Source of the DNA: Squalus acanthias
Lineage: Eukaryota
Reading direction: 5' to 3'
Length of the DNA stretch: 64,000 nucleotides
Assembly: GCA_030390025.1 (NCBI GenBank)
Contig: CM059431.1
Location: 128,218,001-128,282,000 of the forward strand
This document shows, in pieces, positions 1-46,870 of this stretch. Below the pieces are notes generated by a model. The model was given only the letters and a program-made list of their open reading frames with translations, did no database searches and was not told the DNA's origin. Made by a program: the position numbers and the translations under genes. Position 1 is the stretch's first letter; each line of letters starts with the position of its first letter.

Positions 1-657
1 TTACAGGCCTTGCTTACTTTTATTATGACACCTATAATGGATCATCCGAGCGCATAATATGATTTTGCCTTGTGAGCAGAGCTGCACAATCTGCAAGGGG
101 TGCTCTAGAGAGCACAGTCTTGGGATTTGACGTCTTTAAAGCCTGTAGAAAAATGTAAAGGTCTGGCATTACTCATTATTGAAGTGCTCATCCCTAAGTT
201 GAAATTTGTTCCACAAAAGACAAACATCTTTCATATTATTTCTGTTCCCTGTAGCAATATCTAATCAAATGTCATTGTTGGCACCATCGCTTTCTGAAAG
301 ATTATTCATTTTGTTGTTTTACTGTAGGTCTATGCTAGAGGTCTGGAATAAATGTATTTTATTAGTGTTTTTTAAAATGTATTTCCTTTGGGTGGTTCAC
401 TTGCGATATTACAGAAATTGATTAGAAAAGCAGATCATTGTGAATTAGCAATTTGGATGGTGGAAGATAGCATTTAATTAACTTTGAGATAAATAGCACT
501 ATTTTTCTTTCTTTGGGAGTCTCACTAGGCCAGAAGATGAGAGACGTTTGCTGCTGGACTGCGGGATTAGTATCTACACAAAGAATTATGTATTTTGAGC
601 CCTGTTGAAATAATTAGCTTAGAGGTGCAATCACTTTTGCTGCCCAGTAAAGAGTAT

Positions 658-1531
658 GGCCGCGATTTTTCCAGTCGATGCAGCTTGGGGGGGGGCAGCT
701 GCCTTCCGGGTTCTAGTCCCGCCCCCATGACATCCGACGCACAGACGCAATTCTGTGTCAATTGGCCTTATTAAGCCTGCCCTGCGGGCTTGCCAGCCAA
801 TTAAGAGGAAGCCGGTGTCAGATGACGTCAGTTGATGACCCGTCATCTGCCGGTTTTCTTAAAGGGGCCACGCACAATTTTTTTTGACAGCTGATTTTTC
901 AGTGTTTGACAGCATTGAGGTGCTGCAAACACTGACAATCACTGTACAGAGGTGAGCCCTTGCCCCCAGGCTCTCCAGTGACTCCCTCCTTAGGCTAGAA
1001 CAGATGGCAGCTGCAGCTGAGGTTACAGAAGTGATCTGTCACTGGTGAGAGAGGTTCTCCCAAAGAGGTGGGACTACACAAACAAATCAAAACTTGTCAC
1101 CTACAGAAAAATCTAAATACATTAAAAATGATTTTTCCAACATTTTCTTACCTCTGAAACTCACCAGTGTACCATTGGATCCTTCACACCACTTCTGCAG
1201 CTGTCATCAATGCACAAACATTACAGTAGACCTACAGCACGCCACACTTACCTGGCATGGTGTCCGGATGTTGGGAAGCCGGCAGTCGACCTGTCAAAAT
1301 TGCAAAAAGCCTCTTAACTGCCTGCTAACAACCTGTTAACAAGCAGTTAAGTGCCTAAAATCCTCTTCCCACCGCTAGGTGTTGGGTCCATGCGCAAATC
1401 GGGGACCCGACACCTGGGACGATTGTCTGGAGGTGGGTTGACAGCGAGTTTCTGACCCGCTGTCAATCTTTGCATTTTGCCAGATGTCCCACTTCCAAAC
1501 GCGCCCCCTGAGTGCTGGCAAAATTCCCCCC
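658..1531. mobile_element. Non-autonomous PIF/Harbinger-like element (MITE)
   Basis: Imperfect TIRs GGCCGCGATTTTTCCA / TGGCAAAATTCCCCCC with a 3-bp TAT duplication at 655-657 and 1532-1534. The left part resembles 10789-11486. Confidence 0.7.
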
Positions 1532-2206
1532 TATATGTTGGTAAGCTTTAGTGCTTTTAACTTTCAAATGGAAATTATGACTATTAGCACTGGCTGAGCT
1601 AGATTTTACTACAAGCTTAAAATGTAATGGATGGAATCTTTTTCTGATAACACAAATCATTCCATTATTATCATGGAGTCCCCGTGAGATGAGTACAAAT
1701 CCAAGCCAGAGATGTTAACTAAACTGAATTTGGTTGACTTGACTGAGCTAAATCAAAACTAACCCTGAGTTTAGACTACTCAGATTATGAAGCATGTACA
1801 TTTTTGGACACTGTTCCTAGTGACCAAGCTAGCATGCTCTAAATTGATCAAATGGAAGATATAATGCAGTCAGGTGGACGTAGGCTTGCGACAGGAACAA
1901 AAATATTTGGTCAGAGGCCTTACTCTATCCAGTTGCTCCTCTTGGAAACAGGCATTGAGCTTGATACTCTTTGCAGTTAGACTGAAAACAGGAATGAACT
2001 TTTCCTGCAACTGAAAGAAGTCTAGCTACGTGTTTCCAGTTGAGGAGAAAGGGCAGAGTAATTTTAGTTTAAAGGTAATATTTCTTGCAGGGGAAGGACG
2101 AGCAAATGTACACTATGTTGCCCAGATTATAGATTTTGTTTTAAATGGTTTGCGCTCAACTATGGGGCAAAACTGATGAAGCGACTGCAACGAGTGCCCG
2201 AAAGGC

Positions 2207-2640
2207 CAACAACAACAACTTGCATTTGTATAGCGCCTTTAACGTAGTAAAACATCCCAAGGCGCTTCACAGGACCATTAGCAAACAAAATTTGACACTG
2301 AGCCACATAACGAGATATTAGGGCAGGGAGGTAAGTTTTAAGGAGCATCATTAAGGGGGAAAGAGAGGTAGAGAGACCGAGAGGATTAGGGAGGGAATTC
2401 CAGAGCTTAGGGCCTTGGCAGCTGAAGGTACGGCCGCCAAGGGTGGAGCGATTAAAATCGGGGATGCTCAAGAGGCCGGAATTGGAGGAGAGCAGATATC
2501 TTGGAGGGTCATAGGACTGGAGGAGGTTACAGAGAGAGCGGGGGCGAGGTCATGGAGGGATTTGAAAAGAAGGATTAGAATTTTAAAATCGAGGCGTTGC
2601 TCAACCTGGAGACATTGTAGGTCAGCGAGCACAGGGATCA
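2207..2640 (-). mobile_element. L2-clade LINE 3' fragment
   Basis: Minus-strand peptide GGRTFSCQGPKLWNSLP...LLKTYL is the typical L2 ORF2 C-terminus. It is followed by a 3' UTR ending in a (GTT)n tail. Confidence 0.75.
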
Positions 2641-3236
2641 GCTGAGAGGGCCTGAAATTGTTCCTCAGGCCTCAAACCATGAAAGTGGTGAGCTGGGGGT
2701 ACCAATTGGGTATCCCAATGCAGCTTGCCGGTCGGCCCCAGAGCAAGATTGACCAGCTCGGACGCCAGCAGCGGCACTCGGGTAGGTCCTGGGATGGAAT
2801 GGAAGGGGCAAACAGGAGGGGGCGAGCCCACAGTGTAACTATGGAGCCAGGAGGTGCAGGTAAGTTAAAAGGTACTTACATGTCTTCAGTGTCCTCCAGT
2901 GGTCGCTTTAACTAAAATATATATCATCTTGCCAGATTATTTAATTATAGAGTTTGAGCCGCTGGTTAGTCCACTGTAGAACCTAGAAAACTAGTCTGAG
3001 CTTGCACAACGCAAAGCTCTGCCTAATTTTTGACCAATTGCAGAGAGAGGTTCTTAAACAAGTATTAGGCCCCTCATTAGCATATGCGAGGGTCCTAACG
3101 CTTGTTTAAGGCAACTGCCAAGGATGCCTAAATATTGCCCAAGCCAATATGGATTTGGACATATTTCAGGTGCCCTTGGGGACACACCCAACAAAAGGGC
3201 AAAGCACGTTCCAATTTTGTTCCTGAAATACATTAA

Positions 3237-3667
3237 TTGGGTCGATTGGGCTTATACTTGCTGGAGTATAGAAGAATGAGAGGGGATCTCATCGAAACAT
3301 ATAAAATTCTGACAGGTCTGGACAAACTAGATGCAGGAAGAATGTTCCCGATGGTCGGAGAGTCCAGAACCAGGGGTCATAATCAAAGTATAATGGGTAA
3401 GCCATTTAGGACAGAAATGAGGAAGAATTTCTTCACCCAGAGAGTGATGAACCTGTGGAATTCTCTACCACAGAAGGTAGTTGAGGCCAAGTCATTAAAT
3501 ATATTCAAGAATGAGTTAGATATATTTCTTAAAGCTAAAGGTATCAAGGGATATGGGGAGAAGGCAGGTACAGGGTACTGAGTTTGGATGATCAGCCATG
3601 ATCTCATCGAATGGCGGAGCAGGCTCGAGGGGCCGAATGGCCTACTCCTGCTCCTATCTTCTATGTT
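3237..3667 (+). mobile_element. CR1 LINE 3' fragment
   Basis: RRMRGDLIETYKIL...FFTQRVMNLWNSLP C-terminus followed by the GGCCGAATGGCC hairpin and a TTCTATG-type tail. Confidence 0.9.
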
Positions 3668-4113: not shown

Positions 4114-7100
4114 TTTTTTTTATTCGCTTATGGGATCTGGGCGTCGCTGGCAAGGCCAGCATTTATTGCTCATCCCTAATTGCCCTTGAGAAGGTGGTGG
4201 TGAGCCACCTTCTTGAACTACTGCAGTCCGTGTGGTGAAGGTACTCCCACAGGGCTGTTAGATAGGGAGTTCCTGGATTTTGACCCAGTGACAATGAAGG
4301 ATCGGCGATATACTTCTAAGTCAGGATGGTGTGTGACTTGGAGGGGAACTTGGAGGTGGTGGTTTTCCCATGCGCCTGCTGCCCTTGTCTTTCTAGGTTG
4401 AAGAGGTCGCGGGTTTGGGAGCTGCTGCCGAAGAAACCTTGGCAAGTTGCTGCAGTGCATCTTGTAGATGGTACACACTGCAGCCAAGGAGCGCTGGTGG
4501 TGGAGGGAGTGATTGTTTAAGGTGGTGTATGGGGTGCCAATCAAATGGGCTGCTTTGTCCTGGATAGTGTCGAGCTTCTTGAGTGTTGTTGCAGCTGCAC
4601 TCATCCAGGCAAGTGGAGATTATTCCATCACACTCCTGACTTGTGCCTTGTAGATGGTGGAAAGGCTTTGGGGAGTCAGGAGATGAGACACTCGCCGCAG
4701 AATACCTAGCCTCTGACCTGCTCTCGTTGCCACAGTATTTATGTGGCTGGTCCAGTTAAGTTTCTGGTCAATGGTGACCCCCAGGATGTTGATGGTGGGG
4801 GATTCGGTGATGGTAATGCTGTTGAATGTCAAGGGGAGGTGGTTAGATTCTTGCTTGTTGGAGATAGTCATTGCCTGGCACTTGTGTGGCACGAATGTTA
4901 CCTGCCACTTATCAGCCCAAGCCTGAACGTCATCCAGGTCTTGTTGCATACGGCCATGGACTGCTTCATTATCTGAGGAGTTGTGAATGGCGCTGAACAC
5001 TGTGCAGTCATCAGCGAACATCCCCATTTCTAACCTTATGTTGGAGGGAAGGTCATTGATGAAGCAGCTGAAGATGGCTGAACCTAGGACACTGCCCTGA
5101 GGAACTCCTGCAGCGATGTCCTGGTGCTGTGATGATTGACCTTCAATCAGCACAACCATCTTCCTTTGTGCTAGGTATGACTCCAGCCAGTGGAGCATTT
5201 TCCCCCTGATTCCCATTGACTTCAGTTTTATTGGGGCTCCTTGATGCCACACTCGGTCAAATGCTGCCTTGATGTCAAGGGCAGTCACTCTCACCTCACC
5301 TCTGGAATTCAGCTCTTTGGTCCATGTTTGGACCAAGGCTATAATGCCTGTCGTGAGCCGAGTGGTCTTGACGGAACCCAAACTGGGCATCAGCGAGCAG
5401 GTTATTGGTGAGTAAATGCCGTTTGATAGCACTGTCGATGACACCTTCCATCACTTTGCTGATGATTGAGATTAGACTGATAGGGCGGTAATTGGCCGGG
5501 TTAGATTTGTCCTGCTTTTTGTGGACAGGACATACCTGGGCAGTTTTACACATTGTCGTGTAGATGCCAGTGTTGTAGCTGTACTGGAACAGCTTGGCTA
5601 GAGGTGCACAAGTCTTCAGCACGATAGCCGGAACGTTGTCGGGACCCATAACCTTTGCTGTATCCAGTGCGCTCAACCGTTTCTTGATATCACGTGGAGT
5701 GAATCGGATTGTCTGAAGACTCGTTCTGTGATGGTGAGGACCTCGGGAGTAGGCCGAGATGGATCATCCATTCGGCACTTCTGGCTGAAGATGGTTGCCA
5801 ATACTTCAGCCTTGTCTTTTGCACTCACGTGCTGGGCTCCACCATCATTGAGGATGGGGATATTCATGGAGCCTCCTCCTCCCGTTAGTTGTTTAATGGT
5901 CCACCACGATTCACTTCTGGATGTGGCAGGACTGCAGAGCTTTGATCTGATCCGTTGATTGTGGAATCGCTTAGCCCTGTCTATAGCATGTTGCTTCCAC
6001 TTTTTAGCATGCATGCTGTCCTGTGTTGCAGCTTCCCCAGGTTGTCACCTCATTTTTAGGTACGCCTGGTGCTGCTCCCGGCATGCTCTTCTACACTCCT
6101 TATTGAACTAGGGTTGGACCCCTGGCTTGGTGGTAATGGTAGAGTGAGGAATATGCTGGGCCATGAGGTTGCAGATTGTGGTGGAATACAATTCTGCTGC
6201 TGCTGATGGCCCACAGCGCCTCATGGATGCCCAGTTTTGAGCTGCTAGATCTGTTCTGAATCTATCCCATTTAGCACGGTGGTAGAGCCACACAACATGA
6301 TGGTGGGTGTCCTCAGTATGAAGGCGGTACTTCGTCTCCACAATGTCTGTGCGGTGGTCACTGCTACCAATGCTGTCATGGACAGATGCATCTGCAACAG
6401 GTAGATTGGTGAGGACGAGGTCAAGTAGGTTTTTTCCTAATGTTGGTTCTCTCACCACCTGTCGCAGGCCCAGCCTGGCAGTTATGTCGTTCAGGACTCA
6501 GCCAGCTCGGTCAGTATTGGTGCTATCGAGCCACTCTTGATGATGGACATTGAAGTCCCCCACCCAAAGTACATTCTGTGCCCTTGCTACGCTCAGTGCT
6601 TCTTCTAAGTGATGTTCAATATGGAGGAGTACAGATTCATCAGCTGAGGGAGGGCGGTAGGTGGTAATCAGCAGGAGGTTTCCTTGCCCATGTTTGACCT
6701 GAAGACATGAGACTTGATGGGGCCCGGAGTTAATGTTGAGAACTCACAGGGCCACTCCTTCCCGACTGTATACCAATGTGCCGCCACCCCTGGTGGGTCT
6801 GTCCTGCCGGTGGGACAGGGCATACCCAGGGATGGTGATGGAGGAGTTTGGGACATCGGCTGAAAGGTATGATTCTGTGAGTATGACTATGTCTGGCTGT
6901 TGCTTGACTAATCTGTGGGACAGCTCTCCCAATTTTGGCACAAGTCCCCAGATGTTGCTGAGGAGGACTTTGCAGGGTTGACTGGGCTGGGTGTGCCGTT
7001 GCCGTGTCCGTAGCCGGTGCGGGGCGGTCCGTACGGTTTCATTCTTATTATGTTTCGTAGCGGTTAGTTACAACTGAGTGACTTGCTAGGCCATTTCAGA

Positions 7101-7397
7101 GGGCAGTTAAGAGTCAACCACATTGCTGTGGATCTGGAGTCACATATAGGCCAGACCAGGTAAGGACGGCAGATTTCCTTTCCCTAAAGGACATTAGTGA
7201 ACCAGATGGGTTTTTACGACAATCTGATAGTTTCATGGTTACCATTACTGAACTAGCTTTTTATTCCAGATATATTTAATTAACTGAATTTAAATTCCCC
7301 AGCTGCCGTGGTGGGATTTTGAACTCACGTCTCTGGATCATTAATCCAGGCCTCTGGATTACTAGCCCAGTGACATTACCATTACGCTACCGTTCCC
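4114..7397 (-). mobile_element. Full-length ORF1-less non-LTR retrotransposon (CR1/Jockey group, APE+RT) with tRNA-like 5' head, copy 1 (frameshifted)
   Basis: EN start KVLLSNIWGL..PDIVILTESYL. RT motifs [34 protein letters not shown]. The 3' end is AATAAATGCTGGCC...GAAT-poly(A). About 400 bp of 5' UTR starts with A/B boxes. Confidence 0.9.
7314..7389 (-). promoter_or_regulatory. Pol III type-2 internal promoter (A box + B box) at LINE 5' end
   Basis: A box TAGCGTAATGG (7389-7379) fits TRGCNNARYGG. B box GTTCAAAATCC at 7324-7314. Confidence 0.7.
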
Positions 7398-12831: not shown

Positions 12832-15485
12832 CATAAGAACATAAGAAATAGGAGCAGGAGTCGGCCATTTGGCCCTTCGAGCCTGCTCTGCCATTCAATA
12901 AGATCATGGCTGATCTTCTACCTCAACTCCACTTTCCCGCACTATCCCCATATCCCTTAATTCCCTTAGTTCCCAAAAATTTATCGACCTCTGTCTTGAA
13001 TATACTCAACGACTGAGCATCCACAGCTCTCTGCGTAGAGAATTCCAAAGATTCACAACCCTTTGAATGAAGAAATCTCTCCTCATCGCAGTCCTAAATG
13101 GCCGACCCCTTATTCTGAAACTGTGACCCCGTGTTCCAGATTCCCCAGCTGGGGAAACATTTTCTCAGCATTAACCCTGTCAAGCCCCTTAAGAATTTTA
13201 TATGTTTCAATTAGATCACCTCTTATTCTGCTAAACTCTAGGGAATATAGGCCTAGTCTACTCAATCTCTCCTCATAGGGCAATCCCCTCATCCCTGGAA
13301 CCAGTCTGGTGAACCTTCGTTGCACTCCCTCTAAGGCAAGTATGTCTTTCCTTAGGTAAGAGGACCAAACTGTACATAGTACCCCAGGTATGGCCTCACC
13401 AATGCCTTGTATAATTGTAGTAAGACATCTTTACTCTTATACTCTAATCCCTCTGTAACAAAAGCTAACATACCATTTGCTTTCCTAATTGGTTGCTGTA
13501 CCTGCATGTTAACTTTCTGTGATTCATGTACAAGGACACCCAGGTCCCTCTGAATATAAATATTTCCCAGTCTCTCACCATTCAAAAAATATTCTGCTTT
13601 TATGCTTTTCCTATCAAAGTGGATAACTTCACACTTCCCCACACTGTATTTCATTTGCCATGTTCTTGCCCACTCAGTCAACCTGTCTATATCTTCTGCA
13701 GCCTCTTTGTGTCCTCCTCACAGCTTACTTTCCCACCTAACTTTGTATCATCAGCAAACTTAGATATGTTACACTCAGTCCCTTCATCTAAGTCATTAAT
13801 ATAGATTGTAAATAGCTGAGGCCCAAGCACTGATCCTTGTGGTACCCCACTAGTTACAGCCTGCCAACCCGAAGAAGTCCCATTTATTCCTACTCTCTGT
13901 TTTCTGTCCATTAACCAATCCTCAATCCATGCTAATATATTACCCCCATCCCATGAGTCCTAATTTTGTTTAATAACCTCTTGTGTGGCACCTTATCGAA
14001 TGCTTTTTGAAAATCCAAATGCACTACATTGACTTGTTCTCCCTTATCCATCCTACTAGTTACATCTTCAAAAAACTCTAACAGATTTGTCAAACATGAT
14101 TTCCCTTTCATAAAACCATGTTGACTCTGCCTAATCATATTATGATTTTCTAAGTGCGCTGTTACCACATCCCTAATAATAGATTCTAGCATTTTGCCTA
14201 CTACTGATGTCAGGCTAACTGGCCTATAGTTCTCCATTTTTTCTCTTCCTCCTTTCTTAAATAGCAGGGTTATGGTTGCTACTTTCCAATCCTTGGGGAC
14301 TGTTCTAGAATCTAGAGAATTCTGGAAGATTAATAACAGTGCATCCACTATCTCTGCTGCTACCTCTTTTAGAACCCTAGGATGCAGGTCATCAGGTCCA
14401 TGGGATGTGTCACCACTTAGTCCCATTAATTTTTCCAGTACTATGGGCTAGAAATTCAATGCATTTGCACCTCTTGTTAGTGCTCCTGGGGGCACCAACG
14501 GGGCGCAAACGACTTTTCACCCAGGCGTAGCTACGGTAACGACTCCTGCTAAATTCAGCGGGAGTTTAGCGGTGGCAGTAACCAGTAGCACCCCGCTCCG
14601 CTGCACAGGTGACACCGTGCACAGTGTTTTCACCCTGCCTGCAAAATTGGCCCACACCCCCTGAATCTGCGCCGGGCGATGACAACAACCGATTCAGAGG
14701 ACGGGAACAGAGCGCAGGAGGCTTGCATGGCGTTAACTAAAAAAATCGGCCAACCTGTTGCAGCCCGGTGCGTCTTTGAACGCAGGGTCTGTGCCACGAT
14801 CTGGCATGGCACCCCGCTCCCCGGTTGTCCAGTTAGGGCCCCACAGAGTTGTGGGCTTGGGCTGCCCCCTTGAATGAGGGGAAGAGCCCTTTCATGCAGC
14901 AGCGCTACGTAGCCCAGTCCGTAGCACTGCAGAACGCACCGCCCCGGGGTTAGCGCTCTAAGAAGGAAGTGGAGTGCTTGAATTAGCGCTTCACCTCCCT
15001 CTTGGGCCGCTAAAACTGAAGTTAGCGATCGCTGGCGCTATTTTTCGCCGGGTGCTAAATTTAGCGCCCAGGTGATGTTGGCGACTCAAAATGGTCACTA
15101 ATTAATTTTTGCCCCTATGTATTTACTTACACTGATTTCTTTAAGTTCGTCATTCTCTACAGACCCTTGGTTCCCCATTGTTTCTGGAATGTTTTAGTGT
15201 CTTCTACCGTGAAGACAGATACAAAGTATTTGGTTAATGTCTCTGCCATTTCCTTATTGCCCATTATAATTTCTTCTGTCTCTGCCTCTAATGGGTCCAC
15301 CTTTACTTTCACTAGGCTCTTCCTATTTACATACCTATAGAAACGTTTACTATCTGTTTTTATGTCTCTTGCTAATTTACTCATATTCTTCTTTCTCTTT
15401 CCTTATCAGTTTCTTGGTCCTTCTTTGCTGAATTCTAAAATCCTCACAATACTCAGGCTTTCTACTCTTTTTGGCAACATTATAA
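12832..15485 (-). mobile_element. CR1 LINE fragment (RT to 3' tail), split by a MITE
   Basis: [42 protein letters not shown], and a (TTCTTATG)n tail at about 12832. Confidence 0.9.
14445..15115. mobile_element. Harbinger-like MITE nested in CR1
   Basis: TIR GGGCTAGAAATT / AATTTTTGCCCC with TAT duplicated on both sides. The CR1 sequence resumes across it. Many TAGCGC/GCGCTA motifs. Confidence 0.8.
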
Positions 15486-15834: not shown

Positions 15835-17347
15835 ATAAGAACATAAGAAATAGAAGCAGGAATTGGCCACTTGGACCCTCGAGCCTGCTCCGCCATTCAA
15901 TAAGATCATGGCTGATCTTGGGCTCAAAGCCACTTCCCCGCACGCTCACCATAACCCTTCACTCCCTTATCTTGCAAAAATCTGTCTATCTCCACCTTAA
16001 ATGTATTTAATGACCCAGTCTCCACAGCTCTCTGGGGCAGAGAATTCCACAGATTTACAACCCTCAGAGAAGAAATTCCTCCTCATCTCAGTTCTAAAAG
16101 GGCGACCCTTTATTCTAAAACTGTGCCCCCGGGTTCTAGATTTCCCCACGAGGGGAAACATCCTCTCTGCATCTACCTTGTCGAGCCCCCTCAGTATCTT
16201 ATATGTTTCAATAAGATCACCTCTCATTCTTCTAAATTCCAATGAGTATAGGCCCAGCCTGCTCAACCTTTCCTCATAAGTCAACTCCTCATCGCTGGAA
16301 TTAACCTAGTGAATCATCTCTGAACTGCCTCCAATGCAAGTATATCCTTCCTTAAATAAGGAGACCAAAACTGTACGCAGTACTCGAGGTGTGGTCTCAC
16401 CAATACCCTGTACAGTTGTAGCAGGACTTCCCTGGTTTTATTCTCCAACCCCTTTGAAATAAAGGCCAACATTCCATTTGCCTTTTTGATTACTTGCTGT
16501 ACCTGCATGCTAACTTTTTGTGTTTCATGCACAAGGACCCCCAGGTCCCTCTGAACTGTAGCATTTTGTAATCTCTCTCCATTTAAATAATAATTTGCTT
16601 TTTTTTTCCTGCCAAAGTGTATAACCTCGTACTTTTCCACATTATACTCCATCTGCCAAATGTTTGCCCACTCACTTAGCCTGTCTATATCCCTTTGCAG
16701 GTTCTTTGAGTCCTCTGCACAACTTGCTTTCCCACCCATCTTTGTATCATCCGCAAACTTGGCTACAGTACACCTGTTCCCTTCATCCAAGTTATTAATG
16801 TAGATTGTAAATAGTTGAGGCCTGAGCACCGATCCCTGTGGCACCCCACTAGTTACCTTTTGCCAACCGGAAAATTACCCATTTATCCCGACTCTCTGCT
16901 TTCTGTTAGTTAGCCAATTCTCCATCCATGCTAATATATTACCCCCAATTCCGTGAGCTCTTATCTTATGCAGTAACCTTTTATGTGGCACCTTATCGAA
17001 TGCCTTCTGGAAATCTAAATACACCACATCCACTGGTTCACCTTTGTCCACCCTGCTCATTACCTCCTCAAAGAACTCCAGCAAATTTGTTAAACATGAT
17101 TTCCCTTTCATAAAACCATGCTGACTCTGCTTGACTGCATTATGATTTTCCAAATGCCCTGCTACTGCTTCCTTAATGAAGGACTCCAGCATTTTCCCAA
17201 CGACAGATGTTAGGCTAACTGGTCTATAGTTTCCTGCTTTCTGTCTCCCTCCTTTCTTAAATAGGGGTGTTACATTTGCGGTTTTCCAATCCGCTGGGAC
17301 CTATCCAGAGTCCAGGGAATTTTGGTATATTGCAACCAATGCATCCA
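15835..17347 (-). mobile_element. CR1 LINE 3' fragment
   Basis: RT motifs ([31 protein letters not shown]) and a CR1 tail. Confidence 0.9.
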
Positions 17348-18423: not shown

Positions 18424-20958
18424 TTTTATTTTTTTTTATTCGTTCCTGGTATGTGGGTGTCACTGGCAAGGCCAGCATTTTTGCCCATCCCTAATTGCCC
18501 TTGAGAAGCTGGTGGTGATCCGCCGTCTTGAACCGCTGCAGTCCGTTTGGTGAAGGTACTCTCACAGGGCTGTTAGGGAAGGAGTTCCAGGATTTTGACC
18601 CAGTGACGTTGAAGGAACGGTATTATATTTCCAAGTCAGGATGCTGTGCAACTTGGAGGGGAACTTGGAGGTGGTAGTGTTCCCCTGTGCCTGCTGCCCT
18701 TGTCCTTCTAGGTGAGAGAGGTTGCGGGTTTGGGAGGTACTGTCAAAGAAGCCTTGGTGAGTTGCTGCAGTGCATCTTGTAGATGGTACACACTGCAGCC
18801 ACGGTATGCTGGTGATGGAGTGAGTGCATGTTTGTGGTGGTGGATGGGGTGCCAATCAAGCAGGCTGCTTTGTCTTGGATGGTGTCACGCTTCTTGAGTG
18901 TTGTTAGAGCAGCACTTATCCAGGCAAGTGTATTCCATCACACTCCTGACGTATGCCTTGTAGATGGTGGAAAGGCTTTGGGAAGTCAGGATGTAAGACT
19001 CTGTCCAGCTCTTTTGGCCACAGTATTCATGTGCCTGGTCCAGTTAAGTTTCTGGTCAATGGTGACCCACAGAATGTTGATGGTGGGGGATTCGGCGATG
19101 GTAATGCTGTTTAATGTCAAGGGCAGGTGGTTAGACTCTCGCTTGTTGGAGATAGTCATTGCCTGGCATTTGTGTGGCGTGAATGTTACTTGCCACTTAT
19201 CAGCCCAAGCCTGAATGTCCAGGTCTTGCTGTATGCGGGCATGGACTGCTTCATTATCTGAGGAGCTGCGTATGGAACTGAACACTATGCAATCATCAGC
19301 GAACATCCCCACTTCTGACCTTATGATGGAGGGAAGGTCATTGATGAAGCAGCTGAAGATGGTTGGGCCTAGGACACTGCCCCGAGGAACTCCTGCAGCA
19401 ATGTCCTGGGGCTGTGATGATTGACCTCCAACAACAACAACCATTTTCCTTTGTGCTAGGTATGACTCCAGCCAGTGGAGCATTTTCCCCACTGATTCCC
19501 ATTGACTTCAGTTTTACTAGGGCTCCTTGATGCCACACTCGGTCAAATGCTGCCTTGATGTCAAGGGCAGTCACTCTCACCTCACCCCTGGAATTGAGCT
19601 CTTTTGTCCATGTTTTGACCAAGGCTATAACGAGGTCTGGAGCCGAGTGGTCCTGGCAGAACCCAAACTGAGCATCTGTGAGAAGGTTGTTGGTGAGTAA
19701 GTGTCGCTTGATAGCACTGTTGATGACACCTTTCATCATTTGCTGATGATTGTGTAGACTGATGGAGCTATATTTGGCAGGATTTTATTTGTCCTGCATT
19801 TTGTGGACAGGACATACCTGGGCAGTTTTGCACATTGTCGGATAGATGCCAGTGTTGTAGCTGTACTGGAACAGCTTGGCTAGAGGCACGGCTAGTTCTG
19901 GAGCACAAGTCTTCAGCATGACAGCTGGACTATTGTCGGGCCTATAGCCTTTGCTGTATCCAGTGTGCTCAGCCATTGCTTGATATCACTTGGAGTGAAT
20001 CGAATTGGCTGAAGACTGGCTTCTGTGATGGTGGGGACCTCAGGAGTAGGCCAATACGGATCATCCACTCGGCACTTCTGGCTGAAGATGTTGCAAATGC
20101 TTCAGCCTGTCTTTGCACACACGTGCTGGGCTCCGCCATCATTGATGATGGGGATATTCATGGAGCCTCCTCCTCCCGTTAGTTGTTTAATTGTCCACCA
20201 TTATTCACGACTGGATGTGGCAGGACTGCAAAGCTTTGATCTGATCCGTTGATTGTAGGAGCACTTAGTTCTGTCTATAGTATTCTGCTTCCGCTGTTTA
20301 GCATCCATGTAGTCCTGTGTTGCAGCTTCACCAGGTTCGAACCTCATTTTTAGGAACTGCTCCTGGTATATTTTTCTGTACTCCTCATTGAAACACGGTT
20401 GGTCCCCTGGCTTGATGGTAATGGTAGAGTGAGGGTTATGCCAGGCCATGAGCTTACAGATTGTGGTGGAATATAATTCTTCTGCTGCTGATGGCGCATA
20501 GCGCCTCATGGATGCCCAGTTTTGAGCTGCTAGATCTGTTCTGAATCTATCCCACAAACTGCAGTGGTAGTGCTACACAACACGATGGACGGTGTCCGCA
20601 GTGTGAAGATGGGACTTCGTCTCCACAAGGACTGTCCAGTGGTCACTGCTATAATGCTATCATGGACTGATGCATATGTGATGGGTAGATTGATGAGGAC
20701 GAGGTCAAGTAGTTTTTTCCCTCGTGTTGGTTCTCTCACCACCTGCCACAGGCCAATCTGCCGCTATGTCCTTCAGGACTTGGTCAGCTTGGTCAGCAGT
20801 GGTGCTACTGAGCCACTCTTGGTGCTGGAAATTGAAGTCTCCCACCCAGAGTACATTCTGTGCCCTTGCTACCCTCAGTGCTTCTTCCAAGTGGTGTTCA
20901 ACGTGGAGGAGGACTGATTCATCAGCTGAGGGAGGGCGGTAAGTGGTAATCAGCAGGA
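18424..20958 (-). mobile_element. tRNA-headed LINE family, 5'-truncated copy 3
   Basis: Collinear with 4114-6680, with the same 3' end and poly(A). Confidence 0.9.
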
Positions 20959-24450: not shown

Positions 24451-27400
24451 AGAACATAAGAACATAAGAAATAGGAGCAGGAGTAGGCCATCCGGCCCTT
24501 CGAGCCTGCTCCGCCATTCAATGAGATCATGGCTGATCTTCTGCCTCAAAACCATTCACAGGCCCTATCGCCATATCCCTTGATGCCCTTACTAGTCAGA
24601 AATCTATTTTGAATATACCCAATGACTGAGCCTCCACAACCCTCTGGGGTAGAGAATTCAAAAGATTCACCACCCTCTGTGTGAAGAAATTTCTTCTCAT
24701 CTCAGTCCTGAATGGACTACACTTTATCTTGAGGCTGTGGCCCCTGGTTCTGAACTCCCCAGCCAAGGGAAACATTCTCCCAGCATCCATCCTATCAAGC
24801 CCTGTAATAAGTTTGTATGCTTCAATGAGATCCCCTCTCATTCTTCTGAATTCAAGAGAATACAGGCCTAGTTTACTCAATCTCTTCTCATATGACAGTC
24901 CCACCATCCCAGGAATCAATCTCGTGAACCTTCGTTGCACTCCCTTTATGGCAAGTATATCCTTCCTTAGGTAAGGAGACCAAAATTGTACACAGTACTC
25001 CAGGTGTGGTCTCACCAAGGCCCTATATAATTGGAGTAAGACTTCTTTACTCCTGTACTCAAATCCTCTTGTAATGAAGGCCAGCATACCATTTGCCTTC
25101 CTAATGGCTTGCTGCACCTGCACATTCACTTTCAGTGACTCATGTACAAGAACACCCAGAACCCTTTGAGCATCTGCATTCCCCAATCTTTCACCATTTA
25201 GGAAATACTCTGCCTTTCTGTTTTTTCTACCAAAGTGGATAACTTCACATTTATCCACATTATATTCCATCTGCCATGTTCTCGCCCATTCACTGAGCCT
25301 GTCGAGATCCCCTTGAAGCCTCTTCACATCCTCTTCGCAACTGACCCTGCCACCTAGCTTTGTATCATCAGCAAATTTGGAAATGTTACATTTAGTCCCC
25401 TCATCCAAATCATTGATATAGATTGTGATTAGCTGGGGCCCAAGCTCCGATCCTTGCGGTACCCCACTAGTCACAGCGTGCCATCCTGAAAAAGACCCGT
25501 TTATCCCTTATCTTTGTTTTCTGTCTATTAACCAATTCTCAATCCATGCTAGTATATTACCCCCAATTCCATGTGCCCTAATTTTGTTCACCAACCTCTT
25601 GTGTGGGACCTTATCGAAGGCCTTCTGAAAATCCAGATGCACCACATCTACCGGTTCCCTTTTGTTTACTCCACTAGTTACATCCTCAAAGAACTCCAAT
25701 AGGTTTTTCAAACAGGATTTCCCAACTACTGATGTGAGGCTAACAGGTCTGTAGTTCCCCGTTTTCTCTCTCCCTCCTTTCTTAAATAGTGGGGTTACAT
25801 TTGCTATCCTCCAATCTGCAGGAACCGTTCCAGAATCTATAGAATTTTGGAAGATGTCAACCAATGCGTCCACTATCCCAATGGTCACCTCTTTCAAAAC
25901 CCTAGGATGTAGGTCATCCGGTCCTTGGGATTTGTCGACTTTTAGTCCCATTAATTTTGCTAGTACTGTTTTTTCACTAATAATCATTTCTTTAAGTTCC
26001 TCATTCTCGTCACACCCTTGGTTTTCTCGTATTTCTGGGAGGTTTATTGTGTCTTCCTCCGTGAAGACAGAAACAAAGTATTTATTTAATTTCTCTGCCA
26101 TTTCCTCATTCCCGACTATAAATTCTCCCGTCTCTGACTGTAAAGGACCTACATTTACCTTCGCCAGTCTTTTCCTTTTCACATACCTATAGAAGCTTTT
26201 ACAATCCAGTTTTATATTTTTCGCTAGTTTGTGCTCGTATTCCATTTTCCCTTTGTTTATCAATTTCTTGGTCCCCCTTTGCTGATTTCTAAAAAGATCC
26301 CAATCCTCAGGCTGACCGCTTTCTCTGGCAACTTTATAAGCTTCCTCCTTTGACTTAATACTAGCTTTAATTTCTTTTGTTAGCCATGGTTGGATCACTT
26401 TTCCTTTTGGGTTTTTATGCCCTAGAGGAATATATGTTTGTTGCAAATTATGCATTATTTCCTTGAATGTTAGCCATTGTATGTCCACCTTCATACCTTT
26501 TAGTGTAGTCTCCCAATCTACCATAGCCAACTTGTCCCTCATACCCTTGTCGTTTCCTCTGTTTAGATTGAAGACCTTAGTTTCAGATTGGACTACATCA
26601 CTCTCAAACATAATGTAAAATTGTCCCTAAAGACCACTTTACCACAAGATTATTGATTAGCCCTTTCTCATTACACAGTACCAGATCCAGAATAACCTGT
26701 TCCCTGGTTGGTTCCTCCACATACTGATCCAGGAAACCATCTTGCAGGCATTCCAAGAATTCGTCCTCCACACCATTAATGGTAATTTGATTTGCCCAGT
26801 CAATATGTAGATTAAAGTCCCCCATGATTACCGTGTTGCCCTTGTTGCATGCACTTCTAATCTCTTGATTGATACTGTGCCCTACATTACCACTACTGTT
26901 TGGTGGCCTATACACAACTCCCACCAATGTTTTCCGCCCTTTGCTGTTTCTTAGCTCCACCCAAACTGATTCCAGTTCTACATCACAATCTGCCAAGCCA
27001 AGATCTTTTATTTCTACCATACCGATCTCATCCCTTATTAACAGCACTACGCCACCTCCTTTTCCTTTTTGTCTGTCCTTCTTAAATGTCGAGTACCCTG
27101 GAACATTCAGTTGCCAGCTGTGGTTACCTTGCAAGCATGTCTCTGTAATGGCAATTACATCATACCCATTTACTTCTATTAGTGCCATTAATTCAACAAC
27201 CTTGTTGCAAATGCTACGTGCATTTAGATAAAGTACCTTCAACTTTGCCTGTTTAATATTTTTCTGCACTTTGACCCTCTTTACTGTTGGCCTTTGTTTC
27301 TGCTCTCTACTAGTTTGGCTGACTACTTTTCTAACTTGCACTTCCAGCTTTGTTTCTCTCCATTCTGGGCCCACACTTAGTTTCCCAGCCCCCTGACAAA

Positions 27401-34882: not shown

Positions 34883-37800
34883 TTTGTTCCTGGGATGTGG
34901 GCGTCGCTGGCAAGGCCAGCATTTATTGCCCGTCCCTAATTGCCCTTGAGAAGGTGGTGGTGAGCCGCATTCTTGAACTGCTGCACTCCGTGCGGTGAAG
35001 GTACTCCCACAGTGCTGTTAGGCAGGGAGTTCCAGGATTTTGACCCAGCGACGATGAAGGATCGGCGATATACTTCTAAGTCATGATGGTGCGTGACTTG
35101 GAGGGGAACTTGGAGGTGGTGGTGTTCCCATGCGCCTGCTGCCCTTCTCCTTCTAGGTGGAAGAGGTCGCGGGTTTGGGAGGTGCTGCTGAAGAAACCTT
35201 GGCGAGTTGCTGCAGTGCATCTTGTAGATGGTACATACTGCAGACACAGTGTGCCGGTAGTGGAGGAAGTGAATGTTTAAGGTGGTGGATGGGGTGCCAA
35301 TCAAGCGGGCTGCTTTGTCCTGGATGGTGTCAAGCTTCTTGAGTGTTGTTGGAGCTGCACTCATCCAGGCAAGTGGAGAGTATTCCATCACACTCCTTAC
35401 TTGATGGTAGAAAGGCTTTGGGGAGTCAGGAGGTGAGACACTCGCCGCAGAATACCTAGCCTCTGACCTGCTCTTGTTGCCACAGTATTTATGTGGCTGG
35501 TCCAGTTAAGTTTCTGGTTAATGGTGACCCCCAGGATGTTGATGGTGGGGGATTCGGTGATGGTAATGCCATTGAATGTCAAGGGGTGGTGGTCAGACTC
35601 TCGCTTGGAGGAGATAGTCATTGCCTGGCACTTCTGTGGCGGGAATGTTACCAGCCACTTATCAGCCCAAGCCTGAACGTCGTCCAGGTCTTGTTGTATG
35701 CGGGCATGGACTGATTCATTATCTGAGGAGTTGTGAATGGCACCGAACACTGTGCAGACATCAGCAAACATCACCATTTCTGACCTTATGTTGGAGGGAA
35801 GGTCATTGATGAAGCAGCTGAAGATGGTTGGGCCTAGGACACTGCCCTGAGGAACTCCTGAAGCGATGTCCTGGAGCTGTGATGATTGACCTTGAATCAC
35901 CACAACCATCTTCCTTTGTGCTAGGTATGACTCCAGCCAGTGGAGAGTTTTCCCCCCCGATTTCCATTGACTTCAGTTTTACTAGGGCTCCTTGATGCCA
36001 CACTCGGTCAAATGCTGCCTTGATGTCAAGGGCAGTCACTCTCTGCTCACCTCTGGAATTCAGCTCCTTTGTCCATATTTGGACCAAGACTGTAATGAGG
36101 TCAGGAGCCGAGTGGTCTTGGCGGAACCCAAACTGGGCATCAGTGAGCAGGTTATTGGTGAGTAAGTGCCACTTGATAGCACTGTTGATGACACCTTCCA
36201 TCAATTTGCTGATGATTGAGAGTAGACTGATGAGGCGGTAATTGGCCGGATTGATTTGTCCTGCTTTTTGTGGACAGGACATACCTGGGCAGTTTTCCAC
36301 TTTGTCGGATCGATGCCAGTGTTGTAGCTGTACTGGAACAGCTTGGCTAGAGGCACGGCTAGTTCTGGAGCACAAGTCTTCAGCACGATAGCCGGGATGT
36401 TGTCGGGGCCCATAGTCTTTGCTGTATCCAGTGCGCTCAGCCCTTTCTTGATATCACGTGGAGTGAATCGAATTGACTGTAGACTGGCTTCTGTGATGGT
36501 GGGGACCTCAGGAGGAGGCCGATATGGATCATCCACTCGGCACTTCTGGCTGAAGATGGTTGCAAACGCTTCAGTCTTGTCTTTTGCACTCATGTGCTGG
36601 GCTCCACCATCATTGAGGATGGGAATATTCATGGAGCCTCCTCCTCCTGTTAGTTGTTTAATGGTCCACCACCATTCACGACTGGATGTGGCAGGACTGC
36701 AGAGCTTTGATCTGATCCGTTGATTGTGGGATCACTTAGCTCTGTCTATAGCATGCTGCTTCCGCTTTTTAGCATGCATGAAGTCCTGTGTTGCAGCTTC
36801 CCCAGGTTGTCACCTCATTTTTAGGTACGCCTGGTGCTGCTCCTGGCATGCTCTTCTACACTCCTTGTTGAACCAGAGTTGGTCCCCTGGCTTGATGGTA
36901 ATGGTAGAGGGGTATGCCGGACCATGAGGTTACAGATTGTGGTGGAATACAATTCTGCTGCTGCTGATGGCCCATAGCGCCTCATGGATGCCCAGTTTTG
37001 AGCTGCTAGATCTGTTCTGAATCTATCCCATTTAGCACGGTGGTAGTGTCACACAACACGATGGAGGGTGTCCTCAGTGTGAAGATGGGACTTCGTCTCC
37101 ACAATGACTATGCGGTGGTCACTGCTATCAATACTGTCATGGACAGATGCATCTGTGACAGGTAGATTGGTGAGGACAAGGTCAAGTAGGTTTTTCCCTC
37201 ATGTTGGTTCTCTCACCACCTGTCGCAGGCCCAGACTGGGAGCTAAGTCCTTCAGGACTCGGCCAGCATTGGTGCTACCGAGCCACTCTTGGTGATGGAC
37301 ATTGAAGTCCCCCACCCAGAGTACATTCTGTGCCCTTGCTACTCTTAGTGCTTCTTCCAAGTTGTGTTCAACATGGCGGAGTACTGATTCATCAGCTGAG
37401 GGAGGGCGGTAGGTGGTAATCAGCAGGAGGTTTCCTTGCCCATGCTTGTCCTGAAGCCATGAGACTTCATGGGGTCCGGAATCAATTTTGAGGACTCCCA
37501 GGGCCACACTTTCCAAATTGTACACCACTGTGCTACCACCCCTGGTGGGTCTGTCCTGCCAGTGGGACAGGAAATATCCAGGGATGGTGATGGAGGAGTT
37601 TGGGACATTGGCTGAAAGGTATGATTCTGTGAGTATGACTATGTCAGGCTGTTGCTTGACTAGTCTGTGGGACAACTGTCCCAATTTTCGCACAAGTCCC
37701 CAGATGTTGGTGAAGAGGACTTTGCAGGGTTGACTGGGCTGGGTGTGGTATTGCCGTGTCCATAGCCGGTGCCAAGGTCGATGCCGGGTGGTCTGTCCGG

Positions 37801-38136
37801 TTTTTATTATTGTTTTTTGTAACTGAGTGGCTTGCTAGGCTATTTCAGAGGGCAGTTAAGAGTCAACCACATTGCTGTGGATCTGGAGTCACATACAGGC
37901 CAGACCAGGTTAGGACGGCAGATTTCCTTCCCTAAAAGGACCTTAGTGAACCAAATGGGTTTTTACAACAATCCAATAGTTTCATGATTACCATTACTGA
38001 TACTAGTAATTATTTAATTAACTGAATTTAAATTCCCCAACTGTCATGGTGGGATTTGAACTCACGTCGCTGAGATCATTAGTCCAGGCCTTCTGAATTA
38101 CTAGCCCAGTGACATTACCACTGTGCTACCATTCCC
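34883..38136 (-). mobile_element. Full-length tRNA-headed ORF1-less LINE, copy 2
   Basis: Collinear with 4114-7397 over its whole length, including the A/B-box head. The 5' ends coincide at GGGAA(C/T)GGTAGC. Confidence 0.9.
38052..38128 (-). promoter_or_regulatory. Pol III A box + B box at LINE 5' end (copy 2)
   Basis: A box TAGCACAGTGG (38128-38118) and B box GTTCAAATCC (38061-38052). Confidence 0.75.
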
Positions 38137-40503: not shown

Positions 40504-40740
40504 AGTAAGGGTAGAAATTGCGGAGGTGCTGGCCACAATCTTCCAATCCTCCTTAGATAGAGAGGTGATGTCAAAGGACTGGAGGGTTGCAAATTTTACA
40601 CCCTTGTTCAAAAAAGGGGAAAAGGATAAACCTGTCAATTACAGGCCAGTCAGTTTAACGTTGGTGTTGGGGGAGATTTTGAAACAATAATCCGGGAGAA
40701 AAATAACAGCCACTATGATAAGCATGGACTAATAAAGGAG

Positions 40741-41030
40741 AAAATTGAGAGGTCGCACAACACCAGGTTATAGTCCAACAGTTTTATTTGAAATCACAAG
40801 CTTTCGGAGCTATCGATTGCTCCTTCCTCAGGTGAAGTAAATTAGATACAGAATCGCCAAAGCATATATATGCTTTGGCGATTCTGTATCTAATTTACTT
40901 CACCTGAGGAAGGAGCAATCGATAGCTCCGAAAGCTTGTGATTTCAAATAAAACTGTTGGACTATAACCTGGTGTTGTGCGACCTCTCAATTTTGTCCAC
41001 CCCAGTCCAACACCGGCATCTCCGCATCAT
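40741..41030 (+). mobile_element. Penelope-like insertion forming a perfect 254-bp palindrome plus a 36-nt 3' tail
   Basis: 40741-40994 is self-complementary about 40867/40868. TSD GACTAATAAAGGAG at 40727-40740 and 41031-41044. Confidence 0.9.
40900..40941 (+). ncRNA. Minimal type I hammerhead ribozyme motif (mirror copy on minus strand at about 40794-40835)
   Basis: TCAC-CTGAGGA-A-GGAGC(aatcgata)GCTCC-GAAA-GC-TT-GTGA. This has the core boxes, stem II, a palindromic stem III (AGCT) and stem I TCAC/GTGA. Confidence 0.75.
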
Positions 41031-41451
41031 GACTAATAAAGGAGAGCCAGCATGGATTTGTTAAGGGCAAATCATGTTTGACTAACTTGACTGGGTTTTT
41101 TGATGAGGTAACAGAGAGGGTGGATGAGAGCAGTGCAGTTGATGTTGTATATATGGACTTTCAAAAGGCGTTTGATAAAGTACCACATAATAGGCTTTTT
41201 AGCAAAATTGAAGCCCATGGGATAAAAAGGACAGTAGCAGCATGGGTACAAAATTGGCTAAGCGATAGAAAAGAGAGAGTTGTGGTGAATGGCTGTTTTT
41301 TGGACTGGAGAGAGGGAGGTATACAATGGTGTTTTCCAAGGTTCAGTACCAGGACTGCTGCTGTTTTTGATATACATTACTGACTTGGACTTGGGATTAC
41401 AGGGCACAATTTTGAAATTTGCAGATGACATGAAACTTGGATGTATAGTAA

Positions 41452-46574: not shown

Positions 46575-46870
46575 GCAGCATTTATTGCCCACCCTTAGTT
46601 GTCCTGAGAAGATGGTAGCGAGCCTCGTCTTTGAATTACTGCAGTCCTTGTGCTGATGGTGTTCCAATGATGGTGTTAGGTAAGGAATTTCAGGATTTTA
46701 ACCCAACAACAATTAAGGAACAGGGATTTATGTCCAAGTCAGGATGGTATGTGACTTGGAGGGGAACTTGAAGTTGATAGTGCTCCCATGAGACTTCTGA
46801 TCTTTTTGTTCTCGGTGGTAGATGTTGCTTGGCTGAGGGGAACTGTTGAAATAAACTTCCACCACCTTGT
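46575..46870 (-). mobile_element. Old 3' fragment of the tRNA-headed LINE family
   Basis: CAGCATTTATTGCCCACCCTTAG...GACTTGGAGGGGAACTTGAAG is homologous to 4158-4400. Confidence 0.7.

What the first reader, a model, noticed from the sequence alone, without database searches (positions are those of the whole stretch)
4114..7397. Candidate Pol III-transcribed, protein-coding LINE: tRNA-like head plus a sense strand purged of TTTT terminators
Seen: this 3.3 kb single-ORF APE+RT element starts with an A box (TAGCGTAATGG) and a B box. The second full-length copy (34883-38136) starts at the same position with the same head, so the head belongs to the mobile unit and is not a chance neighbouring SINE. 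Seen: scanning by eye for AAAA on + (TTTT on the sense strand) gave none in copy 1, none in copy 3 (18440-20958) and one in copy 2 (37934-37937, where copy 1 has three A). Antisense T-runs are common, and the neighbouring CR1 sense strands carry several T4-T6 runs (e.g. GGAATTTTTTG near 51513, GGGTCTTTTT near 51711). Established: vertebrate Pol III terminates at 4 or more T, and autonomous LINEs are normally regarded as Pol II transcripts. Inference: an autonomous SINE-headed LINE whose whole mRNA is made by Pol III, with coding sequence selected to avoid terminators. I do not know of a description of this for the family but cannot check the literature. The three copies are related, so they are not independent evidence.
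Basis: partly seen in the sequence, partly recalled or inferred. Interest (0 to 1): 0.92.

Follow-up and report, generated by a model that had tools for sequence, protein, structure and literature searches.

The report
LINE retrotransposon with a SINE-type tRNA head
An abundant 3.3 kb protein-coding jumping gene in this genome begins exactly with the tRNA-like promoter piece that normally heads tiny non-coding SINEs, so it may be copied by RNA polymerase III, although the sequence alone does not prove that.

Summary
Window 4114-7397 and 34883-38136 (minus strand) are independent full-length insertions of one APE+RT LINE. 18430-20958 is a 5'-truncated third copy. Both full-length copies start at the same base of a tRNA-derived head with A and B boxes. 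Genome-wide, 17 of 29 copies picked by their 5' coding region start at element nt 1-7. The other 12 are 5'-truncated, and none has a different 5' end. TTTT runs on the sense strand are 0, 1 and 0 in the window copies, and 12 in 123.5 kb over 49 copies, all rare or private. The column majority has none.

The "purged" claim is only partly supported. Zero T4 is unlikely from base composition alone (about 4.5 expected). Only 1.5-2 are expected once codon or dinucleotide content is kept (P 0.15-0.2). What is significant is a T-specific, sense-strand anti-clustering. TT observed/expected is 0.71, against 1.05-1.30 in five other LINE fragments. Runs of T3 or longer number 5 against 11.4 expected (P 0.004). 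Codon-junction T|T occurs 8 times against 23.7 expected.

Pol III initiation at the head is the best explanation of the fixed 5' end (about 0.45), but it is untested. Seven informative open-literature searches found no description of such an element. Repbase and Dfam could not be searched.

The parts
4114..7397 (-). Copy 1: full-length headed LINE (3,284 nt), decayed by two frameshifting indels and several stops
7305..7397 (-). tRNA-derived head unit of copy 1 (element nt 1-93). A box at 7379-7389, B box at 7314-7326
   Evidence: Rfam tRNA 17.8 bits; box positions; tRNA-Thr-like call at element nt 2-93 in 2 of 10 other copies
7068..7304 (-). Non-coding leader of copy 1 (element nt 94-330). It is shared with short head+tail (SINE-like) derivatives
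   Evidence: joints from element nt ~326-336 to ~3173-3211 in contigs of three of the four runs laid (X1, X2, X10); pattern hits; L026 and L082
7040..7042 (-). ATG of a short upstream ORF (about 50 codons) that overlaps the main ORF in another frame. The main frame has no in-frame ATG near its start
   Evidence: alignment of 18 copies, ATG present in 15; frames read by eye from that alignment and
4176..7067 (-). Main APE+RT reading frame of copy 1 (element nt 331-3222, broken here; open for 972 codons in the column majority)
4114..4175 (-). 62-nt 3' UTR with AATAAA at 4162-4167 and 4119-4124, ending in an A8 tail
34883..38136 (-). Copy 2: full-length headed LINE, an independent insertion. A box at 38118-38128, B box at 38052-38063. 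One T4 run at element nt 200
18430..20958 (-). Copy 3: 5'-truncated copy (element nt 722-3284) with no T4
46576..46828 (-). Tail fragment of a related family (75.6% nt; 49% aa over the last 97 residues)

Best explanation
Shown. This is a real, abundant and fairly young family of autonomous non-LTR retrotransposons: 3.3 kb, one 972-codon APE+RT frame, a 62-65 nt 3' UTR and a short A tail. Its retrotransposed unit begins at the first base of a tRNA-derived, SINE-type head. That head has a consensus-like A box at nt 9-19 and a B box about 50 nt downstream. The same head plus the last 75-340 nt of the element also occurs as short non-coding derivatives.

Inferred. The head works as a type-2 internal Pol III promoter, as in SINEs. 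TFIIIC on the A and B boxes would place initiation at element nt 1. That would explain why the 5' end is regenerated exactly in each generation even though the head lies upstream of everything else. Because the ancestral sense strand has no T4 or longer run anywhere in 3.3 kb, Pol III could in principle run to the 3' end and make the full-length template for target-primed reverse transcription.

Open. Whether that same RNA is translated, or whether protein comes from a minority of Pol II transcripts, is not known. The T-specific anti-clustering on the sense strand fits long-term avoidance of Pol III terminators but does not prove it.
For: 1. Head on the unit. The head query gave 7,296 first-look candidates in the genome, of which the best 40 were scored, all at 96-100% identity. 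Of the 29 non-self loci, all continue at least to element nt 343. Of these, 19 run on into the LINE body to the end of the 1.5 kb held, and 7 run 577-1,506 nt before a deletion or interruption. Two (one duplicated locus) stop at nt 381, and 1 joins the head directly to the tail.

2. Fixed 5' end. Of 29 copies chosen by element nt 341-740, 16 align from nt 1-7. One more (L063) has a diverged full head, one starts at nt 23, and 11 are truncated at nt 124-347 next to unrelated flanks. None has another 5' sequence and none starts at the tRNA/leader boundary.

3. Independent insertions. Flanks differ, and target-site duplications are visible by eye in several copies, for example L050, L047 and L043.

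4. T4. There are 7 runs in 65,185 nt of 20 full-length copies (15 of 20 have none), against 166 G4, 198 C4 and 294 A4. There are 5 runs in 58,306 nt of 29 further copies. The column majority has none. The flanks have 6.3 runs per kb per strand.

5. T-specific anti-clustering. TT observed/expected is 0.71 and AA is 1.0. Runs of T3 or longer number 5 against 11.4 under synonymous-codon shuffles, P=0.004, whereas A, C and G are not depleted; L081 gives 7 against 13.5, P=0.004. Codon-junction T|T is 8 against 23.7 expected. Five other LINE fragments in the window have TT observed/expected of 1.05-1.30.

6. No RNA structure signal. The head RNA does not fold better than shuffles (z 0.25, -0.73, -0.16) and shows no acceptor stem. 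What resembles a tRNA is therefore the DNA-level promoter, as in SINE heads.

7. Length. The marked Alu constructs described in the passages seen of PMC2666806 are Pol III units. That they exceed 1 kb is my recollection, not from the call.
Against: No expression, polymerase-occupancy or 5'-end chemistry data exist here. The runs laid are only guessed to be RNA, and they are contigs.

Zero T4 is not significant once composition is respected: P=0.15 under codon shuffle, P=0.055 for L081, and P=0.21 under dinucleotide shuffle. The depletion has no threshold at 4. It extends to T3 and to plain TT, which a terminator rule alone does not predict.

The element ends with two AATAAA hexamers and an A tail. 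That also suits ordinary Pol II polyadenylation.

A CpG-rich patch at nt 301-450 (observed/expected 1.0 against 0.44 overall) could be a Pol II promoter.

An uncapped Pol III RNA would need unusual translation. The field's stated view is that LINEs use Pol II and that Pol III processivity limits length (PMC10886601 passages; PMC5786205 discussion).

Head and body distances correlate only weakly (Mantel r=0.33, P=0.08, against r=0.74 for body against body).

All copy samples were the top-scoring matches to copy 1, not random samples.
Confidence: 0.45

Rival explanations
1. Pol II element with a captured SINE as its 5' UTR. The LINE acquired the SINE head by recombination or template switching. 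It is transcribed by Pol II from nt 1 or just upstream, with the head and leader or the CpG-rich patch acting as an internal Pol II promoter. Its RNA is capped, polyadenylated at the terminal AATAAA and translated normally. On this reading the lack of T4 is a by-product of composition.
For: AATAAA sits 45 and 5 nt before the end, followed by an A tail. There is a CpG-rich patch at nt 301-450. Zero T4 is not significant under the codon or dinucleotide nulls. All LINE promoters characterised so far are Pol II (statements in PMC2666806, PMC10886601 and PMC5786205). Diverged SINE-like copies of the head exist (70.5% identity). The head therefore probably predates this LINE subfamily and was captured.
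Against: A Pol II promoter lying downstream would have to start exactly at the tRNA +1 position in every generation. No copy starts at the tRNA/leader boundary or at any alternative site. The T-specific, sense-specific TT deficit, which is absent from five other LINE fragments, is left unexplained.
Confidence: 0.3
2. Head re-added at each insertion. The LINE RNA is headless and made by Pol II. During target-primed reverse transcription the enzyme switches, within the shared leader, onto abundant SINE RNA and copies the tRNA head.
For: The leader (nt 94-330) is shared between the LINE and the short derivatives. Head and body distances correlate only weakly. Template switching is the accepted origin of SINE heads (PMC5786205).
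Against: It predicts many copies ending at the LINE's own 5' end or at variable switch points. In fact 17 of 29 are complete and the 11 truncated ends are scattered between nt 124 and 347. Exact head+tail pattern hits in this genome number only 7, each with a different junction, so a large pool of donor SINE RNA is not evident here.
Confidence: 0.08
3. 5'-end processing signal. The element is read through from upstream host promoters. The tRNA-like head is cut at its +1 by RNase P. This would be analogous to the 5' ribozymes of R2, RTE and L1Tc elements.
For: The 5' end lies exactly at tRNA +1. 5' self-cleaving ribozymes are known in several LINE clades (PMC5786205 discussion).
Against: There is no acceptor stem or cloverleaf. 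The folding energy equals that of shuffles. Rfam aligns only model positions 7-64. ARAGORN accepts 2 of 10.
Confidence: 0.07

Closest known systems
tRNA-derived SINEs with LINE-derived tails in cartilaginous fishes (HE1/HER1; SacSINE1 and CmiSINEs with L2-2_CM)
   Same: tRNA-derived head with A and B boxes, an anonymous body, and a 3' tail shared with a partner LINE (table rows of PMC3747384; passages of PMC5499810).
   Different: Here the head sits on the 3.3 kb coding LINE itself, not only on the short element. Those papers, as far as I read them, describe sharing of the 3' tail only. Whether this head is the HE1, V, Deu or CORE type could not be tested, because no Repbase or Dfam copy is available.
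Bipartite non-autonomous LINEs, and SINEs that carry LINE 5' parts (Kojima 2018, PMC5786205)
   Same: Short derivatives keep the 5' and 3' ends of the autonomous element. The LINE 5' region appears as a SINE 'body' (abstract and discussion read).
   Different: In that model the tRNA head is added only to the short derivative and the autonomous LINE stays Pol II-driven. That model was found only for the RTE and Vingi clades. Here the autonomous element carries the tRNA head.
Cassandra / TRIMp3 (LTR retrotransposons with 5S or tRNA Pol III promoters; PMC10886601)
   Same: [quoted passage not shown]
   Different: Those are short (311-1,263 bp) and non-coding. That paper argues that autonomous partners must use Pol II because of Pol III's weak processivity.
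Ordinary LINEs with internal Pol II promoters (L1, jockey and others)
   Same: APE+RT ORF, 5' truncation, target-site duplications and an A-rich tail.
   Different: Their 5' UTRs are not tRNA-derived. Their sense strands, as in the five other LINE fragments of this window, carry T4 runs at about the frequency that composition predicts.
T+ SINEs (B2, Dip, Ves) whose Pol III transcripts are polyadenylated
   Same: AATAAA close to the 3' end plus an A tail on a unit with a tRNA-type head (abstract of PMC8466645 seen in the listing).
   Different: Those SINEs also carry a Pol III terminator at the end. This element has no T-run at its end.

Membership tests
Non-LTR retrotransposon (APE-type LINE) | Reverse transcriptase domain | tested here: met
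   RVT_1: 95.4 bits in copy 1 and 132.3 bits in L081. Human L1 ORF2p is the best PDB match, E 3e-14.
Non-LTR retrotransposon (APE-type LINE) | N-terminal apurinic/apyrimidinic-type endonuclease | tested here: met
   Exo_endo_phos 34.5 bits and Exo_endo_phos_2 33.4 bits in copy 2. Copy 1 scores only 20.8 bits, below the cut-off.
Non-LTR retrotransposon (APE-type LINE) | Dispersed copies with 5' truncation, target-site duplications, an A-rich 3' end and no LTRs | tested here: met
   Copy 3 and 11 of 29 sampled copies are 5'-truncated. Duplications were read by eye in several loci, and tails have 6-13 A.
LINE clade (RTE versus L2/CR1) | Phylogenetic placement of the RT among reference clades | not testable with these tools
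   No labelled reference RTs were available. The nearest database proteins are unnamed, at 38% identity. The architecture (3.3 kb, one ORF, short overlapping upstream ORF, about 60-nt 3' UTR) recalls RTE. The tail motif (AATAAATG...GAATGAAT) recalls L2. Both resemblances are recalled from memory, not tested.
tRNA-derived SINE (SINE2) | tRNA-derived 5' head with A and B boxes | tested here: met
tRNA-derived SINE (SINE2) | Short (about 100-700 bp) and non-coding | tested here: not met
   The unit is 3.3 kb with a 972-codon frame. Only its rare deletion derivatives fit: L026 at 685 bp and the 7 pattern hits.
Type-2 Pol III transcription unit | A box near +8 to +19 and B box 30-60 nt downstream | tested here: met
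   A box at nt 9-19 (TAGCGTAGTGG in young copies). B box at nt 72-85. The consensus forms of the boxes are recalled.
Type-2 Pol III transcription unit | No T4 or longer run inside the unit | tested here: met
   0 in the column majority. 12 rare runs in 123.5 kb of 49 copies. This is expected by chance in about 15-20% of sequences with this codon or dinucleotide content.
Type-2 Pol III transcription unit | T-run terminator at the end of the unit | tested here: not met
   The element ends in AATAAAAAAAA. T-runs occur only in some flanks.
Type-2 Pol III transcription unit | Occupancy by TFIIIC/TFIIIB/Pol III and 5'-triphosphate transcripts | not testable with these tools
   No ChIP data or raw RNA reads were available. 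The runs laid are contigs of uncertain type.

The most novel reading that the evidence does not exclude
This would be the first autonomous retrotransposon whose full-length RNA is initiated, and read through for 3.3 kb, by RNA polymerase III from a tRNA-derived internal promoter. Its sense strand would be kept free of T clusters for that reason. The uncapped RNA would serve as the retrotransposition template. It may also be translated by a cap-independent route through the short overlapping upstream ORF, since the main frame has no AUG. SINEs would then arise from it by simple internal deletion, rather than by adding a head to a LINE fragment.
Probability: 0.35. Interest if true: 0.92.

Novelty: new variant of a known kind. 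Interest (0 to 1): 0.66.

Why it matters
The textbook division is that LINEs are Pol II mRNAs and SINEs are short Pol III parasites. It is restated in the three papers read here. A high-copy coding LINE whose unit starts at a SINE-type Pol III promoter blurs that division whichever polymerase turns out to act.

If Pol III acts, it shows that Pol III can support an autonomous element. It gives a direct deletion route from LINE to SINE. It also raises the question of how an uncapped 3.3 kb RNA is translated. If Pol II acts, it is a clean case of a LINE replacing its promoter with a SINE, with a start site that coincides with tRNA +1.

Either way the family is young (copies about 3% from their column majority). 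Some copies are broken by a single stop. The question is therefore directly testable in elasmobranch cells or extracts.

Tried and rejected
Rfam at gathering threshold and ARAGORN on the whole window found nothing. The head is seen only below threshold.

Expression. The look-up of sequencing runs listed no holder on record as RNA. The four runs laid are contigs guessed to be RNA, so neither starts, strands nor expression can be read from them.

Headless relatives. A genome search with the nearest database protein (P0001, 38% identity) returned only this family: 47 matches scored, all at 37-39%.

Clade assignment from the PDB, the protein atlas and database names gave nothing.

Literature. Ten paper runs were made. 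Three were format errors. Seven ran and found no paper describing a tRNA-headed autonomous LINE or a Pol III-made LINE, including a search for four sequence strings of the head and tail. A further search on RTE architecture gave only background on composition. Repbase, Dfam and subscription journals were not searchable, so 'not described' holds only for these searches.

The scan's earlier findings gave nothing in three look-ups.

A possible secondary start-site cluster at nt 194-196 (3 of 29) has unrelated flanks. I treated it as ordinary truncation.

I considered whether many copies share copy 1's frameshift. This was not resolved, because the indel sits where recurrent slips are possible.
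Full report
WHAT IS THERE

The finding's interval (window 4114-7397, sense on the minus strand) is one of three copies of a single repeat. blastn finds 34891-38136 (89.7%, element nt 1-3267) and 18430-20958 (85.9%, element nt 722-3284, so 5'-truncated). It also finds a 254-nt tail of a related family at 46576-46828.

All three window copies are decayed. Copy 1 has two frameshifting indels and several stops. The encoded protein is an endonuclease plus reverse transcriptase. RVT_1 scores 95 bits in copy 1 and 132 bits in L081, and Exo_endo_phos scores 34.5 bits in copy 2. The best solved relative is human L1 ORF2p.

The nearest full-length database proteins are unnamed, at 38% identity. The only named near-identical partial hits are from a shark and a ray. 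The host is therefore probably an elasmobranch.

THE HEAD

Copies 1 and 2 have unrelated upstream flanks and begin at the same bases, GGGAA(C/T)GGTAGC. The A box lies at element nt 9-19 and the B box at nt 72-85. Younger copies read TAGCGTAGTGG.

The tRNA likeness is below formal thresholds. Rfam tRNA scores 17.8 bits in copy 1 and 21.7 bits (E 0.045) in L032, covering the D, anticodon and T arms with a 22-nt insert. ARAGORN calls a tRNA-Thr-like gene in 2 of 10 loci and none in the window. The head RNA folds no better than shuffles and has no acceptor stem. This is the usual state of a SINE head, where the promoter survives and the tRNA structure does not.

GENOME-WIDE CHECK

The window's 3.7 Gb genome could be searched.

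Sample chosen by the head:
- The head gave 7,296 first-look candidates. The 40 scored were 96-100% identical.
- Of the 29 non-self loci, 19 continue into the LINE body to the end of the DNA held.
- Seven continue 577-1,506 nt.
- Two (one duplicated locus) stop at nt 381.
- One (L026) joins the head directly to the last 340 nt, making a 685-bp SINE-like element.

Sample chosen by the 5' coding region (nt 341-740; 3,144 candidates, 40 scored, 29 loci):
- Seventeen copies carry the complete head.
- One starts at nt 23.
- Eleven are truncated at nt 124-347 against unrelated flanks.
- None has a different 5' end.

Several copies show target-site duplications (read by eye). Twenty full-length copies differ from their column majority by about 3% in the body. 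That majority has one open frame of 972 codons. None of 47 long matches is free of stops, but six have a single stop.

So the head belongs to the mobile unit of an abundant, fairly young family. All samples are the best-scoring matches to copy 1, not random draws.

SHORT DERIVATIVES

Contigs of four public runs from four coded organisms cover the whole element.
- Depth falls from the 3' end towards the 5' end and rises again over the head.
- Contigs of three of the four runs (X1, X2, X10) join element nt ~326-336 to nt ~3173-3211, which is head plus a 75-110 nt tail.

In this genome an exact pattern for such joints found 7 places, each with a different junction, against 0 in the reversed control. 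One of them (L082) has a head only 70.5% identical to the LINE's head. The head therefore also exists on short elements, some of them older than this LINE subfamily.

THE T-RUN CLAIM

The counts are right.
- Runs of T4 or longer on the sense strand number 0, 1 and 0 in the window copies.
- Twenty full-length copies (65,185 nt) carry 7 such runs, against 166 G4, 198 C4 and 294 A4. Fifteen of the 20 have none.
- Twenty-nine further copies (58,306 nt) carry 5.
- The column majority has none.
- Genomic flanks have 6.3 per kb per strand.
- Five other LINE fragments in the window have 2.1-10.8 per kb, near their composition-based expectation.

Is zero surprising? It depends on the null.
- From base composition alone about 4.5 are expected (my arithmetic from the composition).
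- Keeping the protein and the element's own codon usage, 1.66 are expected in the 2,916-nt frame (P(0)=0.15), plus 0.33 in the non-coding ends.
- For the natural open frame of L081, 2.5 are expected (P=0.055).
- Keeping dinucleotides, 1.47 are expected in the whole element (P=0.21).

The absence of T4 is therefore not significant on its own.

What is significant is broader.
- Runs of T3 or longer number 5 against 11.4 under synonymous shuffles (P=0.004). L081 gives 7 against 13.5 (P=0.004). A, C and G show no such deficit in the column-majority frame; in L081, G is marginally low (23 against 27.7, P=0.037).
- TT observed/expected is 0.71 against 1.0 for AA.
- T|T across codon junctions occurs 8 times against 23.7 expected.
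- The five other LINE fragments have TT observed/expected of 1.05-1.30, and the rest of the window 1.12.

The sense strand of this family does avoid T clusters. The avoidance has no step at four, which a pure terminator rule would predict.

MECHANISM

The strongest argument for Pol III is not the T count. It is the 5' end. A retrotransposon must regenerate its first base in every generation. Here the first base is tRNA +1, about 8 nt upstream of an A box. That is where a type-2 promoter places initiation (established knowledge of tRNA and SINE promoters, recalled).

A Pol II promoter in the leader or in the CpG-rich patch at nt 301-450 would be expected to lose the head. No copy starts at the tRNA/leader boundary.

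With no T4 in 3.3 kb, Pol III read-through is at least permitted.

Several points count against Pol III:
- The element ends with two AATAAA and an A tail.
- There is no terminal T-run.
- An uncapped RNA would need unusual translation.
- The literature read states that LINEs are Pol II units and that Pol III processivity limits length.

The main frame has no in-frame ATG. It is preceded by a short ATG-initiated ORF of about 50 codons in another frame, with the ATG present in 15 of 18 copies (frames read by eye). How it is translated is open under any model.

My probabilities are:
- 0.45 for Pol III initiation producing the full-length template.
- 0.30 for Pol II using a captured SINE as its 5' UTR.
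- 0.08 for re-addition of the head by template switching.
- 0.07 for RNase P-type processing of read-through RNA.

COMPARISON AND NOVELTY

The parts are all known kinds: an APE+RT LINE, a tRNA-derived SINE head, and a shared tail. The combination is what is unusual, namely the head on the autonomous element.

Kojima's survey found LINE 5' regions inside SINEs only for the RTE and Vingi clades. It assumes that the autonomous partner is Pol II-driven. TRIMp3 and Cassandra elements carry Pol III promoters but are short and non-coding. Seven informative open-literature searches found no description of such an element. Repbase and Dfam could not be consulted. The clade (RTE-like architecture against an L2-like tail) is unresolved.

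I file it as a new variant of a known kind.

VERDICT

Interest is 0.66. The structural finding is solid and surprising.

Noticed in passing
window 13379-14462 (-), 16302-17339 (-), 24812-26542 (-), 40514-41438 (+), 51167-52604 (+): Fragments of other LINE families, unrelated to this one (25-38% aa identity to it). They are C-poor (14-17% C), with T4 runs at about the composition-expected rate and TT observed/expected of 1.05-1.30. I used them only as controls.
   Followed up: partly
window 7036-7046 and 6959-7067 (-); alignment of 18 copies: The main APE+RT frame has no in-frame ATG. A short ATG-initiated ORF of about 50 codons overlaps its start in another frame. A 12-nt indel polymorphism lies just downstream of that ATG.
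   Followed up: partly
element nt 301-450 (window about 6948-7097, -): A local CpG-rich patch in the column majority: 11 CpG, observed/expected 1.0, against 0.44 for the whole element. It lies right after the head and could be a Pol II promoter or a methylation target.
   Followed up: no
L004 and L007 (two places on contig C1615): Two head-bearing copies stop at element nt 381 and continue into the same GC-rich sequence with near-identical flanks. This is a segmental duplication rather than two insertions.
   Followed up: no
genome-wide matches to window 4620-5450 (-) translation: Most of the 140 scored matches align over residues 1-276. That span includes about 35 N-terminal residues that copy 1 reads in a shifted frame. 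Either many copies share that frame shift or the site is prone to recurrent slips.
   Followed up: partly
L026 (685-bp head+tail element): This SINE-like copy ends in a T10 run where LINE copies have the A tail. It is the only case seen of a terminator-like run right at the element's end.
   Followed up: no
window 46576-46828 (-): A 5'-truncated tail of a related family (75.6% nt identity). It shows that the tail type is shared by more than one lineage in this genome.
   Followed up: partly
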